Shown piece by piece: positions 1 through 63,999 of a stretch of 64,000 bases of DNA (within the stretch, counting starts at the first letter, position 1; every line of letters starts with the position of its first letter). This DNA comes from Eledone cirrhosa (lineage: Eukaryota): the NCBI GenBank assembly GCA_964016885.1, contig OZ024743.1, forward strand, positions 365,738,001-365,802,000, written 5' to 3'. The notes below the pieces were generated by a model that was given only the letters and a program-made list of their open reading frames with translations, ran no database searches and was not told the origin of the DNA. Both the position numbers and the translations under genes were made by a program.

Positions 1-134
1 CATAAATATACACACATATACAAACACATACATACATATACACACATCCACACTAAGAACATACATACACACATATATATAAACATATACATATACACAC
101 ATACATACATATACACATATACATACAAATACAC

Positions 135-185
<51 letters not shown>

Positions 186-815
186 TATGTATATACACGT
201 ACATATACACACACATATACATATAATCACACATACTATATAGACACAGATATATATAACCACACACATACATGCACATGTACAACACTTACATACTAAT
301 ATACATACAGAAATACACATACATAGCTATATATACACACAAATATATACAGACTTACATATATACATACAGACTAATACTTACGCATCTATATATCGGT
401 ATATACATACAAACACCACTACACTATCACACAACTTAGAAATACAAAGAGAAAGGTATATACCTATACACATACATATACAAATAGAAAAACATATAGA
501 TATATATATATATATATATACACACACATATACATATACATATATATATATATAACATATATATATATATATATATATACACATACATATACACATACAC
601 ACACATACACATATACACACATACATACATGTACACACACATAGAAATATTTACGCATACACACATACACACATACATATAAAGTCATATACACACATAC
701 ACCTACACGAACATACACATACACATATATAAAGATATATATACACACACACACACACACACAACACATACACACATACACATATATATAAAAAATAAAT
801 AATAAAGATATATAC

Positions 816-870
<55 letters not shown>

Positions 871-1521
871 CACATAAATATACATACACATACATACACA
901 CATACATAGACATACTTGTACATACATACACGTACATCGATATATATACATATATATATACACACATAGACATATACATACATACACACACAACTTACAT
1001 ACACACATATATATACATGTATATTCATACATAGAATTAGATATATAATCATACATACATATGCACTTACTTATACTCATATATACAAATACATACGCAT
1101 CCATATATGCGTATATACATAAAAACACCACTACAACCTCACCTAACTCAGACATACAAATAAAAATAATAATAAAAAGGCATATGTATATACATATATA
1201 CACGCATTAATAGAGATATACATATACATACATATATATACATATATATACATATATACATATATATACATATATATACACACATACACTCATACATATA
1301 TATATATAGATACCCACACACTCATACCACCATAAATACACATACAAACACCCACATATACATATATATACACACGTATATATATATATATATACACACA
1401 CATAAAAAACAGACATGCACATATATATATACTTTTTTACACTTATATATACACATATTATATACACATACACAACCTCACATATACACACATACACATA
1501 AGTTATATTATAATAATAAAA

Positions 1522-1564
<43 letters not shown>

Positions 1565-1654
1565 CATATATATATATATACATATATACACATATAAACA
1601 TATACATACATATATACACACATACGAATATAGACATATATTCACACATAGACA

Positions 1655-1700
<46 letters not shown>

Positions 1701-1969
1701 CACATACATATACACAGACACATATACACACTCACATATATATGTGTGTGCACACACACATATATACACACATACACATATATACACATAAACACATATA
1801 TGTGCATACATGCACACACACATATATCACATAGATACGAAGATAGACATATAAATAGAGAGACATACATATATATACAACACACATACACACACATACA
1901 TACACACACATATACATATACATATATATATACATATATATATATATTCCTATATATACATATATACAT

Positions 1970-2003
<34 letters not shown>

Positions 2004-4882
2004 ACATACACACATTCACATACACATACATATATACATGCATATATACACATATATACATACATACACACTCATATATACACACACAATCTTACATTCA
2101 TATTTGCATGCGCATATATGTATTTTTATATTTAGATATAAATACCCAAACCTATATAGACACTTACCTACATATAAATTCATACATACACGCTTACAAA
2201 TACAGATGATAATAGTATGGGGGAAAGGGGGGGTTTGGAGAAGGGGATCATAGTAAATATATGTTTCAAGAAACATAGAATATTTTCCGTATCTTTATCC
2301 AATGTATGTTTTTACATAGTTTCAGTGTTAGGAAATACAACAAACAAGAACTAAGGCAAAATCTATGCATCTCAAAATAAACAAGTATACCATTAATTAT
2401 ATGTTAACTAAACCAAAGATAGTTAACATATTGATTTCTAAGGTGTAAATTAGTTAGGTTTATAATATTTGAAGTAGAATTTTGAAGTTAAATAGTAGTA
2501 GAGTATTAATTATAGTATAACTAAATTAAAGTTAATAACGTTATGGTATCAATATTAGGAAATGAATTTAGTAATAGGGAAAAAACAAATAAAATAAAGT
2601 ATTACATCGGTAGTAGAATATAAATTATAGGTTAACTAAATTAAAAATTATATATTTATTTCTATAGTATATGTTAATTAGGTATATAATACATAAAGCA
2701 GATATTGTATTTTATCAATAGCATAATATAATTATATGCAAATAGAAATCAAAATTAATACACATACATATACATATACATACACATACATATATACATA
2801 TATATACACATATATATATATATACATATATACACATATACATACACACACACATACACATACACATATACATATACATATCTTTTTCAAAAAAATTGCA
2901 TAGAATATATTAACTAGGTATATATCCAAAACACATCCCATTCTATGATTACATGACATTCTGCAATTCGTCTGTATAAGGATACTAATTTTAAGCAAAT
3001 TAAAATTAAATTTTTAGGTTGATTAAAATTAAAACCAAATTATAAATATATTTCTAAAATGTATATTAATTAGGTCTATAATACTAAAAATTATTTCTCT
3101 GTCATTGGATACACGATATTATTTTGTTATATTTTATCTGTAAAAGAATTATAATAAAAGGTTTAAATAAATTAAAATCAATCTATAAATTAAATTACTA
3201 AGTATATATTAGTAATATTTAAAGGTTTTTCACAATTTATGATTACATAATATTTTATATTCTCATCTGTAATAAAATTTTAATTAAATTAAATTTATAG
3301 GTTAACTAACATTTAAATTAAATTAATTTCTAAAATAATGTTATTAATTAGGTTTATAATATTTAAATGTTTTTTTTAGTTTATGATTACACGATATAAT
3401 TAATTCCTGTCGTTTATTTAATAAGATATCCTTAGACTTCATTATTTCAAATAGTTCTTGGGAACATAATCTACATTCATTTCTATTATTTTGATAAGGG
3501 GTGGCTCTTTTGAGCACACTCCAGGTCAAATCATATTCTATATTCTTATTTTTATAACTATTGATTTTTTCTGCTAGAGATGTTGTATTAGCCAGTGCGG
3601 CATTTTTAAAAAACTATGCTTGTGGGTATTAAACCTTGTCTTAAAATTGTTAGAGGTAGCTCCTATATATGAGCAAATAGAATCTTTAGTTTTAACATTA
3701 CATTTATAGACTATGTTGTTAACAAGACAATTCCCTTTTAATGGGCAGTTTGCTTTGTTTCTACAGTTACATCCTTTCGTTAATTCTGTATTTGAGGAGA
3801 TATTATGGTTAATTTGATGTACTGGTGGTATACTTATGGTTTTCTTACATTTATATGCATTATATGCACTTATATTTTGTTTTATGTTATTTGTTGTAGA
3901 GTATGAGAATTTAACTGTAGACCTATTTAAGATTTGATGGTATTTGTGGTTTGGCGGGAAGTTTTTCTCAAGGATATAAAAAAATTTTTTAGCAATATTA
4001 TCCTTAACTTGTAAATTAAAAGGAGCATTATACCAAGTAACCCGTCTATTACGGTTTCTATGTTGTTTATTATTTTTATTATTTTTATAGGTTGTATCGT
4101 GATTTTTACTAGGAGGATTAATGTTAATGATCTCACCACAACTATTTTTAGTTATATTTGTAGATTTAGGTGTTTTATCCTTTTTATTAGGAGTTTTATT
4201 ATTAATATTTATTAGAGTTGTATGATGAGTAGTTTTTTGAGAGTTACTATACTTTATATTAGAAGATTTGGTATTTTGGGGTATAGTGTGGGTGGCATTT
4301 AGGTGTGTACTTTTCATTTGGTGTTTGTTGGTAATATTATGTTGTATGCTTTCAGTATTTTTAGTAGAAGGTATATACTCTAATCTATTTTTGTGGCCAC
4401 TTCTATCTAGAGCTTCGTTATAGAAGGTCGCATTTTTATCAAATACATCTTGGTTAGAAGAAAGGTTAGAAATTCTAAGTGATATATTATATGCAAGGTT
4501 TTTAAGGATAGATTTAGGGTGATTAGATTGTGAGTGTATGTAATGTAAGTTTTGGTTAGGTTTATGGTAAGGTTGGTAGATACCCGTAGCTAAATCTAAA
4601 GTTATGTATATATATGTATATATGTATATATAGGAATATATATATATATGTATATATATATGTATATGTATATGTGTGTGTATGTATGTGTGTGTATGTG
4701 TGTTGTATATATATGTATGTCTCTCTATTGATATGTCTATCTTCGTATCTATGTGATATATGTGTGTGTGTGTGCATGTATGCACATATATGTGTTTATG
4801 TGTATATATGTGTATGTGTGTATATATGTGTGTGTGCACACACATATATATGTGAGTGTGTATATGTGTCTGTGTATATGTA

Positions 4883-4940
<58 letters not shown>

Positions 4941-5030
4941 TGTCTATGTGTGAATATATGTCTATATTCGTATGTGTGTATATATGTATGTATATGTTTA
5001 TATGTGTATATATGTATATATATATATATG

Positions 5031-5079
<49 letters not shown>

Positions 5080-5729
5080 TTTTATTATTATAATATAACT
5101 TATGTGTATGTGTGTATATGTGAGGTTGTGTATGTGTATATAATATGTGTATATATAAGTGTAAAAAAGTATATATATATGTGCATGTCTGTTTTTTATG
5201 TGTGTGTATATATATATATATATACGTGTGTATATATATGTATATGTGGGTGTTTGTATGTGTATTTATGGTGGTATGAGTGTGTGGGTATCTATATATA
5301 TATATGTATGAGTGTATGTGTGTATATATATGTATATATATGTATATATGTATATATATGTATATATATGTATGTATATGTATATCTCTATTAATGCGTG
5401 TATATATGTATATACATATGCCTTTTTATTATTATTTTTATTTGTATGTCTGAGTTAGGTGAGGTTGTAGTGGTGTTTTTATGTATATACGCATATATGG
5501 ATGCGTATGTATTTGTATATATGAGTATAAGTAAGTGCATATGTATGTATGATTATATATCTAATTCTATGTATGAATATACATGTATATATATGTGTGT
5601 ATGTAAGTTGTGTGTGTATGTATGTATATGTCTATGTGTGTATATATATATGTATGTATATCGATGTACGTGTATGTATGTACAAGTATGTCTATGTATG
5701 TGTGTATGTATGTGTATGTATATTTATGT

Positions 5730-5785
<56 letters not shown>

Positions 5786-6070
5786 GTATATATCTTTATT
5801 ATTTATTTTTTATATATATGTGTATGTGTGTATGTGTTGTGTGTGTGTGTGTGTGTGTATATATATCTTTATATATGTGTATGTGTATGTTCGTGTAGGT
5901 GTATGTGTGTATATGACTTTATATGTATGTGTGTATGTGTGTATGCGTAAATATTTCTATGTGTGTGTACATGTATGTATGTGTGTATATGTGTATGTGT
6001 GTGTATGTGTATATGTATGTGTATATATATATATATATATATTTGTTATATATATATATGTATATGTATA

Positions 6071-6101
<31 letters not shown>

Positions 6102-6415
6102 CTATATGTTTTTCTATTTGTATATGTATGTGTATAGGTATATACCTTTCTCTTTGTATTTCTAAGTTGTGTGATAGTGTAGTGGTGTTTGTATGTATAT
6201 ACCGATATATAGATGCGTAAGTATTAGTCTGTATGTATATATGTAAGTCTGTATATATTTGTGTGTATATATAGCTATGTATGTGTATTTCTGTATGTAT
6301 ATTAGTATGTAAGTGTTGTACATGTGCATGTATGTGTGTGGTTATATATATCTGTGTCTATATAGTATGTGTGATTATATGTATATGTGTGTGTATATGT
6401 ACGTGTATATACATA

Positions 6416-6470
<55 letters not shown>

Positions 6471-6604
6471 GTGTATTTGTATGTATATGTGTATATGTAT
6501 GTATGTGTGTATATGTATATGTTTATATATATGTGTGTATGTATGTTCTTAGTGTGGATGTGTGTATATGTATGTATGTGTTTGTATATGTGTGTATATT
6601 TATG
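1..6604. repeat. Large inverted repeat: arms 1-1980 and 4603-6604 (left arm runs off the window), microsatellite-rich
   Basis: Unique words inside the TA/CA mosaic match in reverse complement (e.g. 1-60 vs 6545-6604; ACAACCTCACCTAACTCAGAC vs GTCTGAGTTAGGTGAGGTTGT). The ORF track gives mirror-image ORFs (381..638- vs 5963..6220+; 703..1203- vs 5398..5898+). Confidence 0.95.
3344..4602 (-). mobile_element. 5'-truncated Penelope-like element (Naiad-like): RT thumb, linker, CxC-CPL-C Zn motif, GIY-YIG endonuclease; frameshift near 3610
   Basis: [78 protein letters not shown], continuing in another frame as TWSVLK..CRLCSQE..LLNKRQELIISCNH. Colinear with the ORF at 62149-63987. Confidence 0.92.
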
Positions 6605-9010: not shown

Positions 9011-9057
<47 letters not shown>

Positions 9058-9060
<3 letters not shown>

Positions 9061-9373
9061 ATCAAAAGATGGTTAAAAGAGTTCCATGTATTTTATTATG
9101 CGCATTTCAAAAACAAATATCATCATGCAATAATATTTGTGTTTTCATCAGATAAAATAGGAAGACATGATATGAAGGTTAAAAAAACACTTGTGAATAG
9201 TGCAGTTTTAAATCAGCATATTAAAACTGCACTATTCACAAGTTTTTTTTAACCTTCATATCATGTCTTCCTATTTTATCTGATGAAAAGGCAAATATTA
9301 TTGCATGATGATATTTGTTTTTGAAATGCGCATAATAAAATACATGGAACTCTTTTAACCATCTTTTGTTCTT
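9058..9373. repeat. Fold-back element: ~154-bp arms, 9-nt loop, between (TA)n tracts
   Basis: 9058-9211 is the reverse complement of 9221-9373 with a few mismatches. Confidence 0.95.
9272..9342 (+). ncRNA. Type I hammerhead ribozyme (mirror copy 9089-9159 on -)
   Basis: TATTTTAT-CTGATGA-AAAGGCAAATATTAT tgc ATGATGATATTTGTTTTT-GAAA-TGCGCA-TA-ATAAAATA. Confidence 0.88.
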
Positions 9374-9468
9374 TTATATTATATATACTCCAGTCCTACA
9401 AACTGTAGAGTGCTTCTTATCCGATATCTGCATTGGTTTATTGTACTACAATAAAACTCACCTCCTAC

Positions 9469-25493: not shown

Positions 25494-25839
25494 CAATTAT
25501 TATACAATTATTATTATACAATTCTCTTGTATTCTCTGTCACATCCATTCCACTCTCTAAATACGAAACTGTTGATGACAACATTAATATCCATGTATCT
25601 ATTTGATTGTTCAGTTGAATAGGAAGTTAATTATATGTCCAAACGAAAGTTTGGAAGAAACGATTGTCAGCAATACAATGATTTGAACATAGTTTTGATT
25701 ATTGTGTAATTTATATTCCTGCTCTGTAAAACATCTGATGATTGAGCTATTTTTCTTACTGGTAATAAGGTAGTAAGGAATTACTGACCTTTCCTGTTTA
25801 TAGTTGTATATATATATAACTATAAATAATATTATTATT

Positions 25840-25927
<88 letters not shown>

Positions 25928-25936
25928 ATATATATG

Positions 25937-26000
<64 letters not shown>

Positions 26001-26005
<5 letters not shown>

Positions 26006-29000
26006 GACGTAAAATAAGAAAATATTTTTTTAAAAAAATTTTAAAAAAATTTTTTACTTACTTAAATTTTCACTCCAACTAATTAGTTTCTGCAATGGGA
26101 TAAAGACAGTTACGTAATCCAACTGTCGAGAATTCATTGCGTCATCAGGGAGTCTATTCTCAGTTAAGTCTCCAGGCAATGCGCGGACACTGGCGGCTCA
26201 TATAAAAATAATAATAATTCGGTAGATCGAACAGCTTGCGAGGACTGGATTCTATGTACCGAAATTCTCACTGCTTCAAGTCAAATGGCCGATTCTAAAG
26301 AATCAATCACGTGACACAGAGGCTAGTTAGAAGGAATGGGATGGTAAGATGACTGACGCCTACTAACACCCCAAAAAAAAAATTTTTTAGAAGTGGTTTT
26401 GACAAGTTTGCTCGACAAATCAGTGATTTGGAGATAAATATAGATAATTTAATATATCAACTAACATAAGCGCACAGATGCACGCCCATGCCAGCAAATA
26501 CACAGGTTATGTCATAGTACCTAGGTGGTTCAATGCAGGAGAATGCAGAACAATAATATAAAGGACGTAAAATAAGAAAATATTTTTTTTTAAAAATTTT
26601 AAAAAAATTTTTTACTTACTTAAATTTTCACTCCAACTAATTAGTTTCTGCAATGGGATAAAGACAGTTACGTAATCCAACTGTCGAGAATTCATTGCGT
26701 CATCAGGGAGTCTATTCTCAGTTAAGTCTCCAGGCAATGCGCGGACACTGGCGGCTCATATAAAAATAATAATAATTCGGTAGATCGAACAGCTTGCGAG
26801 GACTGGATTCTATGTACCGAAATTCTCATTGCTTCAAGTCAAATGGCCGATTCTAAAGAATCAATCACGTGACACAGAGGCTAGTTAGAAGGAATGGGAT
26901 GGTAAGATGACTGACGCCTACTAACACCCCAAAAAAAATTTTTTTAGAAGTGGTTTTGACAAGTTTGCTCGACAAATCAGTGATTTGGAGATAAATATAG
27001 ATAATTTAATATATCAACTAACATAAGCGCACAGATGCACGCCCATGCCAGCAAATACACAGGTTATGTCATAGTACCTAGGTGGTTCAATGCAGGAGAA
27101 TGCAGAACAATAATATAAAGGACGTAAAATAAGAAAATATTTTTTTAAAAAATTTTAAAAAAATTTTTTACTTACTTAAATTTTCACTCCAACTAATTAG
27201 TTTCTGCAATGGGATAAAGACAGTTACGTAATCCAACTGTCGAGAATTCATTGCGTCATCAGGGAGTCTATTCTCAGTTAAGTCTCCAGGCAATGCGCAG
27301 ACACTGGCGGCTCATATAAAAATAATAATAATTCGGTAGATCGAACAGCTTGCGAGGACTGGATTCTATGTACCGAAATTCTCACTGCTTCAAGTCAAAT
27401 GGCCGATTCTAAAGAATCAATCACGTGACACAGAGGCTAGTTAGAAGGAATGGGATGGTAAGATGACTGACGCCTACTAACACCCCAAAAAAAATTTTTT
27501 TAGAAGTGGTTTTGACAAGTTTGCTCGACAAATCAGTGATTTGGAGATAAATATAGATAATTTAATATATCAACTAACATAAGCGCACAAAATTTTTTTT
27601 GGGGTGTTAGTAGGCGTCAGTCATCTTACCATCCCATTCCTTCTAACTAGCCTCTGTGTCACGTGATTGATTCTTTAGAATCGGCCATTTGACTTGAAGC
27701 AGTGAGAATTTCGGTACATAGAATCCAGTCCTCGCAAGCTGTTCGATCTACCGAATTATTATTATTTTTATATGAGCCGCCAGTGTCCGCGCATTGCCTG
27801 GAAACTTAACTGAGAATAGACTCTCTGATGACGCAATGAATTCTCGACAGTTGGATTACGTAACTGTCTTTATCCCATTGCAGAAACTAATTAGTTGGAG
27901 TGAAAATTTAAGTAAGTAAAAAATTTTTTTAAAATTTTTTTAAAAAAATATTTTCTTATTTTACGTCCTTTATATTATTGTTCTGCATTCTCCTGCATTG
28001 AACCACCTAGGTACTATGACATAACCTGTGTATTTGCTGGCATGGGCGTGCATCTGTGCGCTTATGTTAGTTGATATATTAAATTATCTATATTTATCTC
28101 CAAATCACTGATTTGTCGAGCAAACTTGTCAAAACCACTTCTAAAAAAATTTTTTTTGGGGTGTTAGTAGGCGTCAGTCATCTTACCATCCCATTCCTTC
28201 TAACTAGCCTCTGTGTCACGTGATTGATTCTTTAGAATCGGCCATTTGACTTGAAGCAGTGAGAATTTCGGTACATAGAATCCAGTCCTCGCAAGCTGTT
28301 CGATCTACCGAATTATTATTATTTTTATATGAGCCGCCAGTGTCCGCGCATTGCCTGGAGACTTAACTGAGAATAGACTCCCTGATGACGCAATGAATTC
28401 TCGACAGTTGGATTACGTAACTGTCTTTATCCCATTGCAGAAACTAATTAGTTGGAGTGAAAATTTAAGTAAGTAAAAAATCTTTTTTTAAATTTTTTTA
28501 AAAAAATATTTTCTTATTTTACGTCCTATTATTGTTCTGCATTCTCCTGCATTGAACCACCTAGGTACTATGACATAACCTGTGTATTTGCTGGCATGGG
28601 CGTGCATCTGTGCGCTTATGTTAGTTGATATATTAAATTATCTATATTTATCTCCAAATCACTGATTTGTCGAGCAAACTTGTCAAAACCACTTCTAAAA
28701 AAATTTTTTTTGGGGTGTTAGTAGGCGTCAGTCATCTTACCATCCCATTCCTTCTAACTAGCCTCTGTGTCACGTGATTGATTCTTTAGAATCGGCCATT
28801 TGACTTGAAGCAGTGAGAATTTCGGTACATAGAATCCAGTCCTCGCAAGCTGTTCGATCTACCGAATTATTATTATTTTTATATGAGCCGCCAGTGTCCG
28901 CGCATTGCCTGGAGACTTAACTGAGAATAGACTCCCTGATGACGCAATGAATTCTCGACAGTTGGATTACGTAACTGTCTTTATCCCATTGCAGAAACTA

Positions 29001-29760
29001 ATTAGTTGGAGTGAAAATTTAAGTAAGTAAAAAATTTTTTTAAAATTTTTTAAAAAAAAAATATTTTCTTATTTTACGTCCTTTATATTATTGTTCTGCA
29101 TTCTCCTGCATTGAACCACCTAGGTACTATGACATAACCTGTGTATTTGCTGGCATGGGCGTGCATCTGTGCGCTTATGTTAGTTGATATATTAAATTAT
29201 CTATATTTATCTCCAAATCACTGATTTGTCGAGCAAACTTGTCAAAACCACTTCTAAAAAAATTTTTTTTGGGGTGTTAGTAGGCGTCAGTCATCTTACC
29301 ATCCCATTCCTTCTAACTAGCCTCTGTGTCACGTGATTGATTCTTTAGAATCGGCCATTTGACTTGAAGCAATGAGAATTTCGGTACATAGAATCCAGTC
29401 CTCGCAAGCTGTTCGATCTACCGAATTATTATTATTTTTATATGAGCCGCCAGTGTCCGCGCATTGCCTGGAGACTTAACTGAGAATAGACTCCCTGATG
29501 ACGCAATGAATTCTCGACAGTTGGATTACGTAACTGTCTTTATCCCATTGCAGAAACTAATTAGTTGGAGTGAAAATTTAAGTAAGTAAAAAATTTTTTT
29601 AAAATTTTTTTAAAAAAATATTTTCTTATTTTACGTCCTTTATATTATTGTTTGTTCTGCATTCTCCTGCATTGAACCACCTAGGTACTATGACATAACC
29701 TGTGTATTTGCTGGCATGGGCGTGCATCTGTGCGCTTATGTTAGTTGATATATTAAATTA

Positions 29761-29765
<5 letters not shown>
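26001..29765. repeat. 557-bp tandem satellite, ~2.85 units in one orientation then ~3.9 units inverted (switch at 27588/27589), inside (TA)n
   Basis: TAAAGGACGT at 26001, 26559 and 27116; its reverse complement ends near 27972, 28527, 29085 and 29642. Units differ almost only in homopolymer lengths. Confidence 0.97.
28377..28458 (+). ncRNA. Type I hammerhead, one per satellite unit (also 27820-27901+, 28931-29012+, 29490-29571+, 26072-26153-, 26630-26711-, 27186-27267-)
   Basis: ACTCC-CTGATGA-cGCAATG..GACAGTT..AACTGTC..CATTGCa-GAAA-CTAATTAG-TT-GGAGT. Confidence 0.87.
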
Positions 29766-29825
<60 letters not shown>

Positions 29826-29830
29826 GTATG

Positions 29831-30080
<250 letters not shown>

Positions 30081-38353: not shown

Positions 38354-38432
<79 letters not shown>

Positions 38433-38434
<2 letters not shown>

Positions 38435-39745
38435 TGTTATACTTTGGGAGGGTCATGTTGCCAATAAGAAATACACGCACCAGTTGCTTTCACTCCAATT
38501 TATTATAAATTAAATTTATAAATTTAAGAATTTATAAATTTCCGGTTGGTTGGTTGGTTCCACAACCAGACGATTATTCATATATTGTCAAAGTTCTTTC
38601 GTCACACATTCTGTGACCTCTTCAGTGACTGGAGATTATTTTCTTTGTTTTGTGCCTCTCCTTTGTTCTGTCCTACACCATCTTGTTTTTGTGTGTGTTG
38701 TGTGCTTAGTTTGCGCATGTGTTACATCCGGGTGTCAGTGTGTGTTTTTATTTGTTTATTTATTTGTTTATTTACATGTTACTGGTTGGTTGTTTGTTCT
38801 ATGTGTGTGTGTTTTCATTTTGTCCTTATTCGTAAGTTGTGATGTTGCTATTCCATTCATGTTTTCTATTTAATTTTGGTTGAAGTTCATTTATGTTTAT
38901 TGCCTCTGTGATTTGTCTAAACATTGCGTCTTTTCTGTGTGTAGATTTTATTTTTATTTCTATGTTCTCTAATTTACCCTTATGTTCTATTTTGGCATGT
39001 TGGTGGAGTATTGATGATTCTTTTTTATCTTGAAGCTCTCGCCAGTGTTCATTTAACCGTTCTCCTATACTACGAGCTGTCTCACCTATGTACACTATAT
39101 TCTTATCTTTACATTGTCCTTCAGTACATCTTATGCTATATACTACATTTCTAGTTTTACAGTTAATATGGGGGTTTAGTTTACAGATTATGCATTTCTT
39201 ATCTATACAGTGAGATCTTTGAAAAGGGTATGTATTGCTAATAAGTGTTTATATGGAGGTACCTGGTCTTTCTACTATCTTAATATTAAGTTTAAGTTTA
39301 TCTAGGGCCCTTCTAAATTTGTAAGCTAATTCACCTCTAGGGGTTGTATTGATGAACATTACACTCTGGTATTTATTGCTCTCATACCATGAGTTTATTC
39401 TATTAACCTTATTCCTAGTTCTTTCTATTCTATTCCAAAATTTGCTCGTCTTATGGTCTTGTTACAATCAGAGAGATAAAATCAGAGTATATAGAGGAGC
39501 CAGAACCAAATGGGGAAAAATGGTAAATAATGATAGAAATGGGACCTGCCCCTTGTATAGGAGCACATTTTAGAATAGAATAGAAAGAACTAGGAATAAG
39601 GTTAATAGAATAAACTCATGGTATGATAGAAATGAATACCAGAGTGTAATGTTCATCAATACAACCCCTAGAGGTGAATTAGCTTACAAATTTAGAAGGG
39701 CCCTAGATAAACTTAAACTTAATATTAAGATAGTAGAAAGACAAA
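38433..39745 (-). mobile_element. 5'-truncated PLE (possibly Nematis-like GIY-YIG) with internal inversion; related 3' end at ~40095-40440
   Basis: IVYSIRC..YIGETARSIGERLNEH..HAKIEH..RQITEAINI..LNRKHEW. 39267-39440 is inverted at 39568-39741. The element ends in a TA tract at 38433. Confidence 0.85.
38587..38629 (-). ncRNA. Minimal type I hammerhead downstream of the GIY-YIG ORF (degenerate homolog ~40277-40316-)
   Basis: Minus strand GTCA-CTGAAGA-gGTCACAgaatgTGTGAC-GAAA-GAAC-TT-TGAC. Confidence 0.78.
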
Positions 39746-57589: not shown

Positions 57590-59998
<2,409 letters not shown>

Positions 59999-62148: not shown

Positions 62149-63999
62149 CTAATGGGTACAATTTGTACTACTAGAACGTTTAGGTTTATAATAAAAGTAT
62201 GAATTAGAAATAGCATGGGGGCAAGAAGAGAATATCTCAGACTTTCTATTAAGTAAAGATGCGCTAGAGAAGATTATAGAGTGTGCCTCGAGGATACAGA
62301 GATTACAAAACTTAGTATGTGTAGAAAGGTGGTTAGAGCGTGCTACTAAACGCCAGTTAAGGCTATATGGTATATTAGCTCCCTTAAGATCCCAGATATA
62401 ATGTGCTAAAGAAGTAGAATTCTTAAACTTAACATGCTTGAAATTAGAGATATGAGAGTTAAACCTAGTCTTAAAAGTGTTAGATGTAGAGCCTATATAA
62501 GTTCTATTAGAGGAATTAGTTATAACTTCGCAAGCATAGACAATGTTCTTAGAAAGGCAGTTACCGTTTAAAGGGCAGTTAGCACTCACTCTACAATTGC
62601 ACTTCCGGGTGTTATTGGTTGACTCAAGTGGTGATGCATTACACGTAGGATTGCTATTAGATAAGGACTGTTCTGGTGGTAATGCATTGCCAGATCTGTT
62701 CAGACTAGTAGTATGTAGAGAGGAGAATCCATCCCTAATTTTCCTATTGTTAGTGCTAGCTAAATGAGAACTAATATTAGGGGTGGTAGAGAATGAAAGT
62801 TTAATAACATTTTTATTAAAAATACTATGGTATTTATGAGAAGGGGGGAAATTTTTCTCTAAGATAGAGAAGAAAGACCTAGGGATATTAGTTGATACTT
62901 CCTGATTATATGGCGGGTTAAAATAAGTATTTAATCGCCTTCTATTTTTATTCTTACCGACTCTACCATTATCAAATATCCCACCATCGAGACTAGGGTT
63001 ACTACAAGGATTAGTTAAAGCCGCATTCATAGAATCAGCCAAAATTTCATTAAGTCTATTACAGTTTCTACCTCCAGTAGATCTGCTGCTGTCCGGAATC
63101 CCATCATAAGGATTAGGGCCAATGATAGGATCAGTAGGAGCAACATTATTAGAATAAGATCCAGCAAAATTATCACCAATGTGTGAGCGCTCAGGGGGTT
63201 CAACTTGTTTCCTAGAGGTATTATATTCACTATTACGGGTCCGGTGGGTTAACTTATGTATGGGTTCAGATACACCTATATAATTTTTACGGTTACTATG
63301 TTTGCTACTCCCATTCATGGCCATGTTATGTGATATTATGTTATTATTATTAAAAGTAGACGGAGACTTTCTAAGGTTACTATTATTATATTGTATTTTA
63401 CTAGAGTAACCTGAATTTGCTAGGGCATTATTATAGTACTCCGCATGTTCATTAAATGTTCCTACGTCCTTAGAGAGTGTGGAAATCCTATTAGATACAC
63501 CCTTAATTATAGAGCTTATCATAGACTTAGGGTGGTTAGAATTGGGACTAACATAAGAAAGTATTTCATTAGGCTTATGGAAGGGTTTAAAACTATTAGT
63601 GACCAAGTCCAAAGTCACATCTAAAAAGTTAACCGCTCTATCATTTCTATCTATCGTGATCGAAAGGTTATAGCTTTTAAAAAACTTATAAAGCTTCTTC
63701 TTATTATGTTCTACATTGTTGGTGCTAGAGTTAATTACAAACAATGCATCATCACGATATAGTCCGCCTATAAGGTGCGGGAAGGTAGCATATAGTTCAT
63801 TAAGGAGGAACAACCCAACAAGATCAGTAACCTGGGCCGAATCACTCGAATCCATTGTAACGTCGAAATTATTGGGCGTGTTTTTACGGGTCCAAAATGT
63901 GTCCTCAAATTTAATAATAGTTTTACGAGCTGCTAGTATAATATCTACCTGTGATCGTGTAAGGCTGGACACTCTCATGGCCAACATTAAAGCTTTATT
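62149..63999 (-). CDS. PLE reverse transcriptase / GIY-YIG endonuclease polyprotein (frame open to the window edge)
   Basis: FDVTMDSSDSAQVTDLVG, GGLYRDDAL, VNFLDVTLDL, SNHP, YFNPPY, CNCRVSANCPLNGNCL, IVYAC..YIGSTSNTFKTRFNSH, CNLCILE, LLNRKSE. No stop in 612+ codons; the upstream codons NKAL are also open. Confidence 0.95.
   Translation of the reverse strand, partial: NKALMLAMRVSSLTRSQVDIILAARKTIIKFEDTFWTRKNTPNNFDVTMDSSDSAQVTDLVGLFLLNELYATFPHLIGGLYRDDALFVINSSTNNVEHNKKKLYKFFKSYNLSITIDRNDRAVNFLDVTLDLVTNSFKPFHKPNEILSYVSPNSNHPKSMISSIIKGVSNRISTLSKDVGTFNEHAEYYNNALANSGYSSKIQYNNSNLRKSPSTFNNNNIISHNMAMNGSSKHSNRKNYIGVSEPIHKLTHRTRNSEYNTSRKQVEPPERSHIGDNFAGSYSNNVAPTDPIIGPNPYDGIPDSSRSTGGRNCNRLNEILADSMNAALTNPCSNPSLDGGIFDNGRVGKNKNRRRLNTYFNPPYNQEVSTNIPRSFFSILEKNFPPSHKYHSIFNKNVIKLSFSTTPNISSHLASTNNRKIRDGFSSLHTTSLNRSGNALPPEQSLSNSNPTCNASPLESTNNTRKCNCRVSANCPLNGNCLSKNIVYACEVITNSSNRTYIGSTSNTFKTRFNSHISNFKHVKFKNSTSLAHYIWDLKGANIPYSLNWRLVARSNHLSTHTKFCNLCILEAHSIIFSSASLLNRKSEIFSSCPHAISNSYFYYKPKRSSSTNCTH

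What the first reader, a model, noticed from the sequence alone, without database searches (positions are those of the whole stretch)
26001..29765. 557-bp hammerhead satellite with a central strand switch (giant palindrome)
Seen: about seven almost identical non-coding units, each with one HHR (palindromic stem III CTAATTAG, GUU site, C.A at the base of a long stem II). The array flips orientation at 27588 and is bounded by (TA)n on both sides. Established: tandem HHR units release monomers that can circularise (newt, schistosome and cricket satellites; non-LTR retrozymes). Inference: the product of rolling reverse transcription on a ~557-nt circular RNA primed from both sides of a TA break. 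It is very young and longer than most described metazoan retrozyme units.
Basis: partly seen in the sequence, partly recalled or inferred. Interest (0 to 1): 0.8.

Follow-up and report, generated by a model that had tools for sequence, protein, structure and literature searches.

The report
Two-armed hammerhead retrozyme insertion
This palindrome is one of many scattered insertions of a 557-base non-coding repeat with a predicted self-cutting hammerhead RNA; its two mirror arms almost always end at two different fixed sites of the repeat, which likely means that a Penelope-type jumping-gene enzyme copied the RNA from both sides of a DNA break at once.

Summary
In detail: seven hammerhead-bearing units (554-559 bp, about 99% identical), three on the minus and four on the plus strand, switching at 27589, between (TA)n tracts. 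It is not a one-off. The family is genome-wide (538 and 253 exact end junctions; 12,089 copies of the ribozyme core motif), and 57 of 104 mapped insertions have the same head-to-head switch, at varying points. A 70%-identical sister family and coding Penelope-like elements (PLEs) in this genome do the same. This is the PLE 'tail' signature, here 122 nt. All units of one insertion share a haplotype across both arms, and hammerhead stem II covaries. Best reading: a non-autonomous PLE-mobilised retrozyme whose RNA is copied from both target strands, likely rolling on a monomer. Cleavage, circular RNA and the helper PLE were not shown.

The parts
25807..26002 (.). left (TA)n target tract
25998..27589 (-). 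left arm, 2.9 units; RNA 3' end at unit position 79 (site A) joined to (TA)n, 5' end at unit position 159
27589..29767 (+). right arm, 3.9 units; 5' end at unit position 250, RNA 3' end at unit position 201 (site B) joined to (TA)n
27499..27589 (.). unpaired spacer and head-to-head junction (1-nt overlap at 27589)
29748..30079 (.). right (TA)n target tract
27897..28453 (+). reference monomer (557 nt), numbered from the first base after the predicted cleavage site
26072..26153 (-). type I hammerhead, copy 1
26630..26711 (-). type I hammerhead, copy 2
27186..27267 (-). type I hammerhead, copy 3
27820..27901 (+). type I hammerhead, copy 4 (one C>T in the 5' strand of stem I, would keep a U.G pair)
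28377..28458 (+). type I hammerhead, copy 5
28931..29012 (+). type I hammerhead, copy 6
29490..29571 (+). type I hammerhead, copy 7
27975..28097 (+). 122-nt 'tail' between sites A (unit 79) and B (unit 201), shown for the reference monomer
28027..28079 (+). predicted long G.U-rich hairpin inside the tail, conserved in subfamilies (present in every unit)

Best explanation
The array is a single insertion of a non-coding, hammerhead-bearing repeat family that is likely mobilised in trans by a Penelope-like element (PLE), and the palindrome likely forms during insertion because both strands of a cut (TA)n target prime reverse transcription, one at unit position 79 and the other at position 201. 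Steps: (1) inferred: arrays are transcribed and multimers are cut by the hammerhead, probably slowly and as dimers, and monomers are ligated into circles; (2) inferred: a dimeric PLE RT/GIY-YIG protein binds the 122-nt tail and its hairpin and nicks both strands of (TA)n; (3) shown as a pattern, inferred as a mechanism: each 3'-OH starts at one of two TATA sites flanking the tail, one site per strand; (4) inferred: each RT runs several laps, giving arms of up to 6.5 units with one haplotype; (5) shown as a pattern: the two cDNA ends are joined head-to-head at variable positions, mostly with 0-5 nt of overlap. If only one arm survives, a plain 5'-truncated array ending at 79 or 201 results.
For: Ends: 153 of 159 complete 3' ends are at 79 (76) or 201 (77), and 150 of these 153 run into (TA)n; the unit has four TATA sites (75, 179, 193, 430) and only two are used. 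Pairing: of 54 complete simple inverted insertions, 48 are 79/201 (28 one way, 20 the other; L171 is one event duplicated, so 47), 1 is 79/79, 5 have one other end (p about 2e-13 against 50:50). Pattern lists on contig C1: 24 of 24 diverging end pairs within 30 kb are 79/201, none 201/201 although 87 of 126 listed ends are 201. Sister family (525 nt, 70% identical): 19 inverted insertions use the homologous pair 61/179, 3 have one other end, none the same end twice, among 30 loci. Coding PLEs here show short end on one arm and tailed end on the other (L097, L106, L109, L111). Template: in 32 arrays 60 variants are fixed in all units (44 across both arms), 44 are singletons, 6 partly shared; 339 of 340 unit-to-unit junctions at the cleavage site are exact. 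Either arm can be the longer (23 v 24), and in 9 of 46 independent pairs neither arm fits inside the other, as simple fold-back would need. Structure: stem II paired in 59 of 60 cells over 10 sequences, 3 of 6 pairs with two-sided changes; tail hairpin kept in 8 sequences, 3 pairs with two-sided changes. Literature: a purified PLE protein cuts and extends both target strands, starts at two RNA sites that bound the tail, and is predicted to be a dimer (PMC11167929).
Against: No coding PLE sharing the unit's hammerhead or tail was found in 130 PLE-bearing loci of about ten families (a small sample of more than 10,000 GIY-YIG candidates); the matches seen (L082, L103, L283, L290, L295) read as separate insertions next to PLEs. 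The 122-nt tail is 3-4 times the published 30-40 nt and longer than the 40-80 nt seen in coding PLEs here. One 79/79 insertion exists (L155). 14 of 56 junctions have the two 5' ends within 35 nt and 4 are perfect hairpins, which fold-back also explains; central deletions after insertion could mimic the 'no-fit' cases. 5' ends of long arms cluster just downstream of the cleavage site (15 of 65 v 7.2 expected, and 10 of 25 v 2.8), which fits linear cleaved templates (or A/T microhomology) as well as circles. In this very array one variant (363A) is shared by 2 of 7 units on opposite arms, unexpected from a monomer circle. C.A replaces the usual base pair at the foot of stem II and the site is GUU, so cleavage may be weak; 8 of 9 predicted Xenopus retrozymes did not cleave in vitro. 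In PMC11167929 initiation was not homologous to the target and did not need hammerhead cleavage.
Confidence: 0.68

Rival explanations
1. Same element and same PLE helper, but one priming event: the first cDNA folds back or switches onto itself, second-strand synthesis makes the mirror arm, and the endonuclease resolves it at the other site (self-priming and EN-resolution ideas of PMC3846280 and PMC8557442).
For: 4 perfect hairpin junctions and 14 of 56 near-symmetric ones; arm lengths correlate weakly (rho 0.34, p 0.02); both arms sharing a haplotype is expected too.
Against: 42 of 56 junction offsets are spread over the whole unit; 9 of 46 pairs cannot be nested; either site can be on the longer arm (23 v 24), so resolution would have to pick 'the other' site each time; the one variant shared between arms in this window is not in fold-back register.
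Confidence: 0.2
2. Twin priming as in the best explanation, but on linear RNA: partly cleaved multimers, or repeated end-to-end jumps onto cleaved monomers, with no circle. This concerns the template only and is compatible with steps 2, 3 and 5.
For: 5' ends of long arms are enriched in unit positions 556-60; L127 has both arms stopping at the cleavage site and L124 one arm; hammerhead cleavage was dispensable in vitro for a PLE.
Against: 339 of 340 junctions are exact, whereas template jumps often add or lose bases (recalled from R2 work, not checked); private variant sets fixed in all units (L060, L140, L155) require a monomer bottleneck; only 4 of 159 5' ends lie within 2 nt of the cleavage site.
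Confidence: 0.35
3. DNA-level origin: satellite arrays grow by unequal crossing-over and the palindrome arises by break repair or recombination after insertion.
For: One 50-unit array (G000:C4:291.98-292.01 Mb) shows higher-order variant patterns typical of later tandem expansion; L171 is a whole insertion duplicated.
Against: Fixed outer ends, one-of-each pairing, uniform polarity and TA targeting at dozens of unlinked loci are not predicted.
Confidence: 0.04
4. Assembly artefact from a chimeric fold-back long read.
For: The junction was not bridged in the 4 runs laid.
Against: The arms end at different unit positions, carry private variants and are separated by a 90-nt spacer; the same rule holds at 47 independent insertions (this one included) and in older subfamilies at 80% identity (L048, L255).
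Confidence: 0.02

Closest known systems
Metazoan non-LTR retrozymes (Cervera & de la Pena 2020, PMC7229834; Li et al. 2026, bioRxiv 10.64898/2026.07.22.740005)
   Same: Dispersed non-coding tandem repeats, one type I hammerhead per unit, GC below 50%, palindromic stem III suited to dimer cleavage, co-occurrence with PLEs.
   Different: Here about half of the insertions have two multimeric arms head-to-head with fixed, paired ends; the passages I read describe tandem arrays only. RNA, cleavage and circles were shown for coral, mussel and axolotl elements, not here. No homologous PLE pLTR was found here (Li et al. found one for 24 of 57 Xenopus families).
PLE insertion architecture: inverted 5'-truncated copy plus 'tail' at one end (PMC3846280, PMC8557442) and two RT start sites bounding the tail (PMC11167929)
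   Same: Head-to-head inverted arm, two alternative 3' ends, tail on one arm only, AT-rich or (TA)n targets.
   Different: Element is non-coding; tail is 122 nt rather than 30-40; both arms are multimers; start sites have TATA microhomology to the target (not so for PAc in vitro); the one-site-per-arm rule is counted here over many insertions.
L1 twin priming (recalled; PMC2837659 seen as a listing only)
   Same: Both target strands prime on the RNA; cDNAs join with short microhomology; inverted 5' part.
   Different: No poly(A); two fixed internal sites instead of the 3' end plus a random internal site; arms overlap in sequence and span several units.
Newt/axolotl satellite hammerheads
   Same: Weak palindromic helix III expected to work as a dimer (PMC7229834, PMC4209133 passages).
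   Different: Long interrupted stem II, C.A at its base, GUU site, larger unit.

Membership tests
Non-LTR retrozyme | Tandem non-coding repeats with a type I hammerhead in each unit | tested here: met
Non-LTR retrozyme | Unit of a few hundred bp, GC below 50% | tested here: met
   557 nt, GC 36%; above 150-450 bp of PMC7229834, within 51-972 bp of Li et al.
Non-LTR retrozyme | Dispersed copies on many chromosomes | tested here: met
Non-LTR retrozyme | Target-site duplication | tested here: inconclusive
   Both flanks are (TA)n, so a duplication cannot be delimited
Non-LTR retrozyme | Self-cleavage of monomer or dimer RNA | not testable with these tools
   Only folding energies: monomer hammerhead fold -18.1 v MFE -22.8 kcal/mol; monomer stem III +1.5, intermolecular duplex -9.0
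Non-LTR retrozyme | Expressed linear and circular monomer RNA | not testable with these tools
   No raw RNA reads were available to lay; haplotype pattern is indirect support only
Non-LTR retrozyme | Homology to the pLTR of a coding PLE | tested here: inconclusive
   None in 130 PLE-bearing loci; sample small against more than 10,000 candidates
PLE-type insertion | Inverted 5'-truncated copy, head-to-head | tested here: met
   57 of 104 insertions
PLE-type insertion | Two alternative 3' ends bounding a tail, tail on one arm | tested here: met
   tail 122 nt, longer than the published 30-40 nt
PLE-type insertion | AT-rich or (TA)n target | tested here: met
   150 of 153 canonical ends
Autonomous PLE | ORF with RT and GIY-YIG endonuclease | tested here: not met
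   Longest frame 52 codons; no linked ORF in the arrays mapped
Type I hammerhead ribozyme | CUGANGA and GAAA core, NUH site, stems I-III with stem I open | tested here: met
   core intact in 8 of 10 aligned sequences, point changes in two old copies
Type I hammerhead ribozyme | Canonical pair at the base of stem II (G10.1-C11.1) directly on the core | tested here: not met
   An invariant C.A lies between the core and the G-C pair in 10 of 10 sequences; effect on activity untested
Type I hammerhead ribozyme | Match to an Rfam hammerhead model | tested here: not met

The most novel reading that the evidence does not exclude
Twin-primed rolling-circle retrotransposition: a PLE protein dimer holds one circular ribozyme RNA at two fixed sites 122 nt apart and copies it for several laps from both strands of the break, one site per strand. 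This would be the general origin of the inverted pLTR and one-sided tail of Penelope-like elements, replacing the self-priming-on-antisense model, and would make a 557-nt non-coding circle a minimal substrate for the whole PLE cycle.
Probability: 0.4. Interest if true: 0.75.

Novelty: new variant of a known kind. Interest (0 to 1): 0.55.

Why it matters
How PLEs make their inverted repeats and one-sided tails is described as undefined in PMC8557442, and how animal retrozymes integrate is left open in the 2026 preprint. This young, abundant family records both in countable form: fixed start sites, a one-site-per-arm rule, and one haplotype per insertion. It links retrozymes to PLE enzymology by insertion signature rather than by co-occurrence, and it names a short RNA and two mutable sites for an in vitro test. 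The parts (retrozymes, inverted PLE ends, tails, two start sites) are each already in print, so this is a sharper case, not a new class.

Tried and rejected
Rfam: nothing at gathering score, only unrelated sub-threshold snoRNA models. No tRNA seen in the tail of the ARAGORN output for a natural dimer. Laying 27210-27900 on 4 runs gave no piece bridging 27589; uninformative because contigs break in repeats and the raw reads are reduced-representation. Helper PLE: GIY-YIG and three protein searches and BLAST of two unit families against 130 loci found none; a suggestive likeness to the 3' end of the L105 family scored 71 against shuffles 59.8 +/- 6.9, max 94, and was rejected. The relaxed hammerhead scan at the end crashed and was not repeated. 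Two apparent same-end pairs in the sister family (L218, L230) and one in this family (L134) proved to be adjacent separate insertions; L155 stood as a real exception. Direct enrichment of 5' ends at the cleavage site is weak (4 of 159, p 0.03). TSD search not possible in (TA)n. Earlier-findings look-ups by sequence and by place were empty.

Full report
Observation. The window holds seven hammerhead-bearing units, three on the minus strand and four on the plus strand, 554-559 bp apart. The left arm spans 25998-27589 and the right arm 27589-29767; they meet with a 1-nt overlap and leave a 90-nt unpaired spacer. Both outer ends run into (TA)n. The unit is non-coding, 36% GC. I number it from the first base after the predicted cleavage site (window 27897 = 1). 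The window lies on a 379-Mb contig of a 3.0-Gb genome. That the animal is an octopod is my recollection of its repeat landscape and was not tested.

The ribozyme. Rfam does not detect it. The core reads CUGAUGA, C, six-pair stem II with an internal loop and a second helix, A, GAAA, CUAAUUAG, UU, then stem I. In ten natural copies from subfamilies down to about 74% identity in this region, stem II is paired in 59 of 60 cells, with two-sided changes at three of six pairs; stem I keeps five or six pairs in eight of ten; stem III and the C.A are invariant (anchored on the core because the MAFFT alignment was out of register). Stem III is unstable as a hairpin (+1.5 kcal/mol) and stable as an intermolecular duplex (-9.0), which fits the dimer mode described for metazoan type I hammerheads (PMC4209133, passages). 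Activity is predicted only; the C.A and the GUU site could make it slow.

The family. A DNA search gave 209 matches from 40 of 572 candidates, most at 98-100% identity. Exact patterns for the two kinds of end give 538 and 253 hits, and the 19-nt core motif 12,089, with zero for reversed controls. I mapped 104 insertions in this window and in fetched stretches; loci were chosen from the best DNA hits and from the two end-pattern lists, so they are not a random sample. 56 have one switch, minus then plus, one has a more complex layout, 47 have one strand. My grouping rule would split a tail-to-tail pair at a canonical end; the few such neighbours seen were of different subfamilies and separated by (TA)n. 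Junction positions differ from locus to locus, and 35 of 56 junctions have 0-5 nt of overlap.

The rule. Of 159 complete RNA 3' ends, 76 are at unit position 79 and 77 at 201; 150 of these 153 run into (TA)n. The unit has four TATA sites and two are used. Of 54 complete inverted insertions, 48 pair 79 with 201 (47 independent, since L171 is duplicated), one pairs 79 with 79 (L155, fetched on purpose as a candidate exception), and five have one other end, two of them cut by later insertions. Pairing the two pattern lists on contig C1 gave 24 of 24 diverging pairs of the mixed kind. A sister family (525 nt, 70% identical, 1,753 candidates) uses the homologous sites: 19 mixed, 3 other, 0 same among 30 loci. 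Between the sites lies a long G.U-rich hairpin that folds on the sense strand only (-27.4 v -4.4 kcal/mol) and is kept across eight sequences, with two-sided changes at three pairs.

Link to PLEs. The genome is rich in GIY-YIG elements (10,596 candidates; RT and GIY-YIG domains). Inverted insertions of four coding families end short on one arm and with a 40-80 nt tail on the other (L097, L106, L109, L111). Published work describes the inverted 5'-truncated copy and a 30-40 nt tail often at one end only (PMC8557442, PMC3846280; passages). A purified Anolis PLE protein cuts and extends both strands, starts at two RNA sites that bound the tail, with no strand preference, and is predicted to be a dimer (PMC11167929, main text and start of methods). 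The retrozyme ends are therefore a PLE signature. The helper itself was not found: no coding element among 130 loci shares the unit's hammerhead or tail. The pyrimidine tract before site A resembles that of the families with a CxxC linker (Neptune-like by the description), which makes them my guess, not a result.

Template. In 32 arrays with three or more long units, 60 variants are fixed in every unit, 44 of them across both arms; 44 are singletons and 6 partly shared. Divergence is 0.10% within and 0.59% between insertions (homopolymer regions masked, the 50-unit array left out). 339 of 340 junctions at the cleavage site are exact. Each insertion thus comes from one homogeneous template and the lineage passes through a monomer. 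A circle is the simplest such template, and circles are shown for other animal retrozymes (PMC7229834, passages). Against: 5' ends of long arms are enriched just after the cleavage site, one insertion has both arms stopping there (L127), and in this window variant 363A sits in one unit of each arm. I put a circle at about 0.55.

Twin priming or fold-back. Fold-back needs the second arm nested in the first; 9 of 46 independent pairs are not nested, either site can be on the longer arm, and most junction offsets are spread across the unit. Central deletions could blur this test, and four perfect hairpins fit fold-back, so it stays at about 0.2. Chimeric reads and DNA recombination do not predict two different fixed ends.

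Novelty. Non-LTR retrozymes, their likely PLE dependence (bioRxiv 10.64898/2026.07.22.740005, parts 1-3 of 5 read), PLE inverted ends, tails and two start sites are all in print. In six searches and the passages read I found no description of retrozyme arrays with two multimeric inverted arms, of a counted one-site-per-arm rule, or of a cephalopod retrozyme (PMC13282606 has no mention of ribozymes); subscription papers and closed supplements were not seen. Other agents in this scan noted PLE-type inverted ends on non-coding repeats in other genomes; these are unchecked notes and suggest the pattern recurs. Verdict: real, a new variant of a known kind, interest 0.55.

Noticed in passing
window 38357-39742: Coding PLE fragment (GIY-YIG frame 38829-39248, minus) with its own short hammerhead at about 38630 and an inverted arm 39457-39742; same minus-then-plus layout. 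Retrozyme insertions often land in the TA run at the end of this family (L032, L129, L141).
   Followed up: partly
window 57631-59894: Decayed PLE with CxxC linker and GIY-YIG, plus strand, with a match to an inverted short arm at 59534-59893.
   Followed up: partly
window 62152-63999: 616-codon open frame on the minus strand with a weak C-terminal GIY-YIG match; another PLE-like family, runs off the window end.
   Followed up: partly
window 9043-9387: 348-bp palindrome (95%) with a hammerhead-like motif on each strand (palindromic TGCGCA at stem III); the motif recurs in L100 and L111.
   Followed up: no
window 1-1980 and 4603-6604: Inverted pair of 2-kb microsatellite-rich blocks, 98.5% identical; possibly the arms of another inverted insertion that extends beyond the window start.
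   Followed up: no
L105:1174-2506 (G000:C3:308.73 Mb): A second retrozyme-like family: about 780-bp unit, hammerhead with long stem II and palindromic CCATGG stem III, also inserted head-to-head in TA.
   Followed up: no
L061-L064 (G000:C4:291978856-292007555): An inverted insertion of this family whose 79-arm grew to about 50 units with higher-order variant repeats: a retrozyme turning into a satellite.
   Followed up: partly
L144:1179-1594 and L151:2850-3080: 201/79 arm pairs separated by 416 and 231 bp of unrelated sequence: capture at the junction or later insertion.
   Followed up: no
window 28214-28229 (each unit): A block with TCACGTGA (E-box-like, label recalled) is identical in the 70%-diverged sister family; possible internal promoter.
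   Followed up: no
run X4 (organism B) on window 27210-27900: Contigs of a run under a different organism label hold the unit nearly unchanged (216 nt with 1 difference): close relative or horizontal transfer, not resolved.
   Followed up: no
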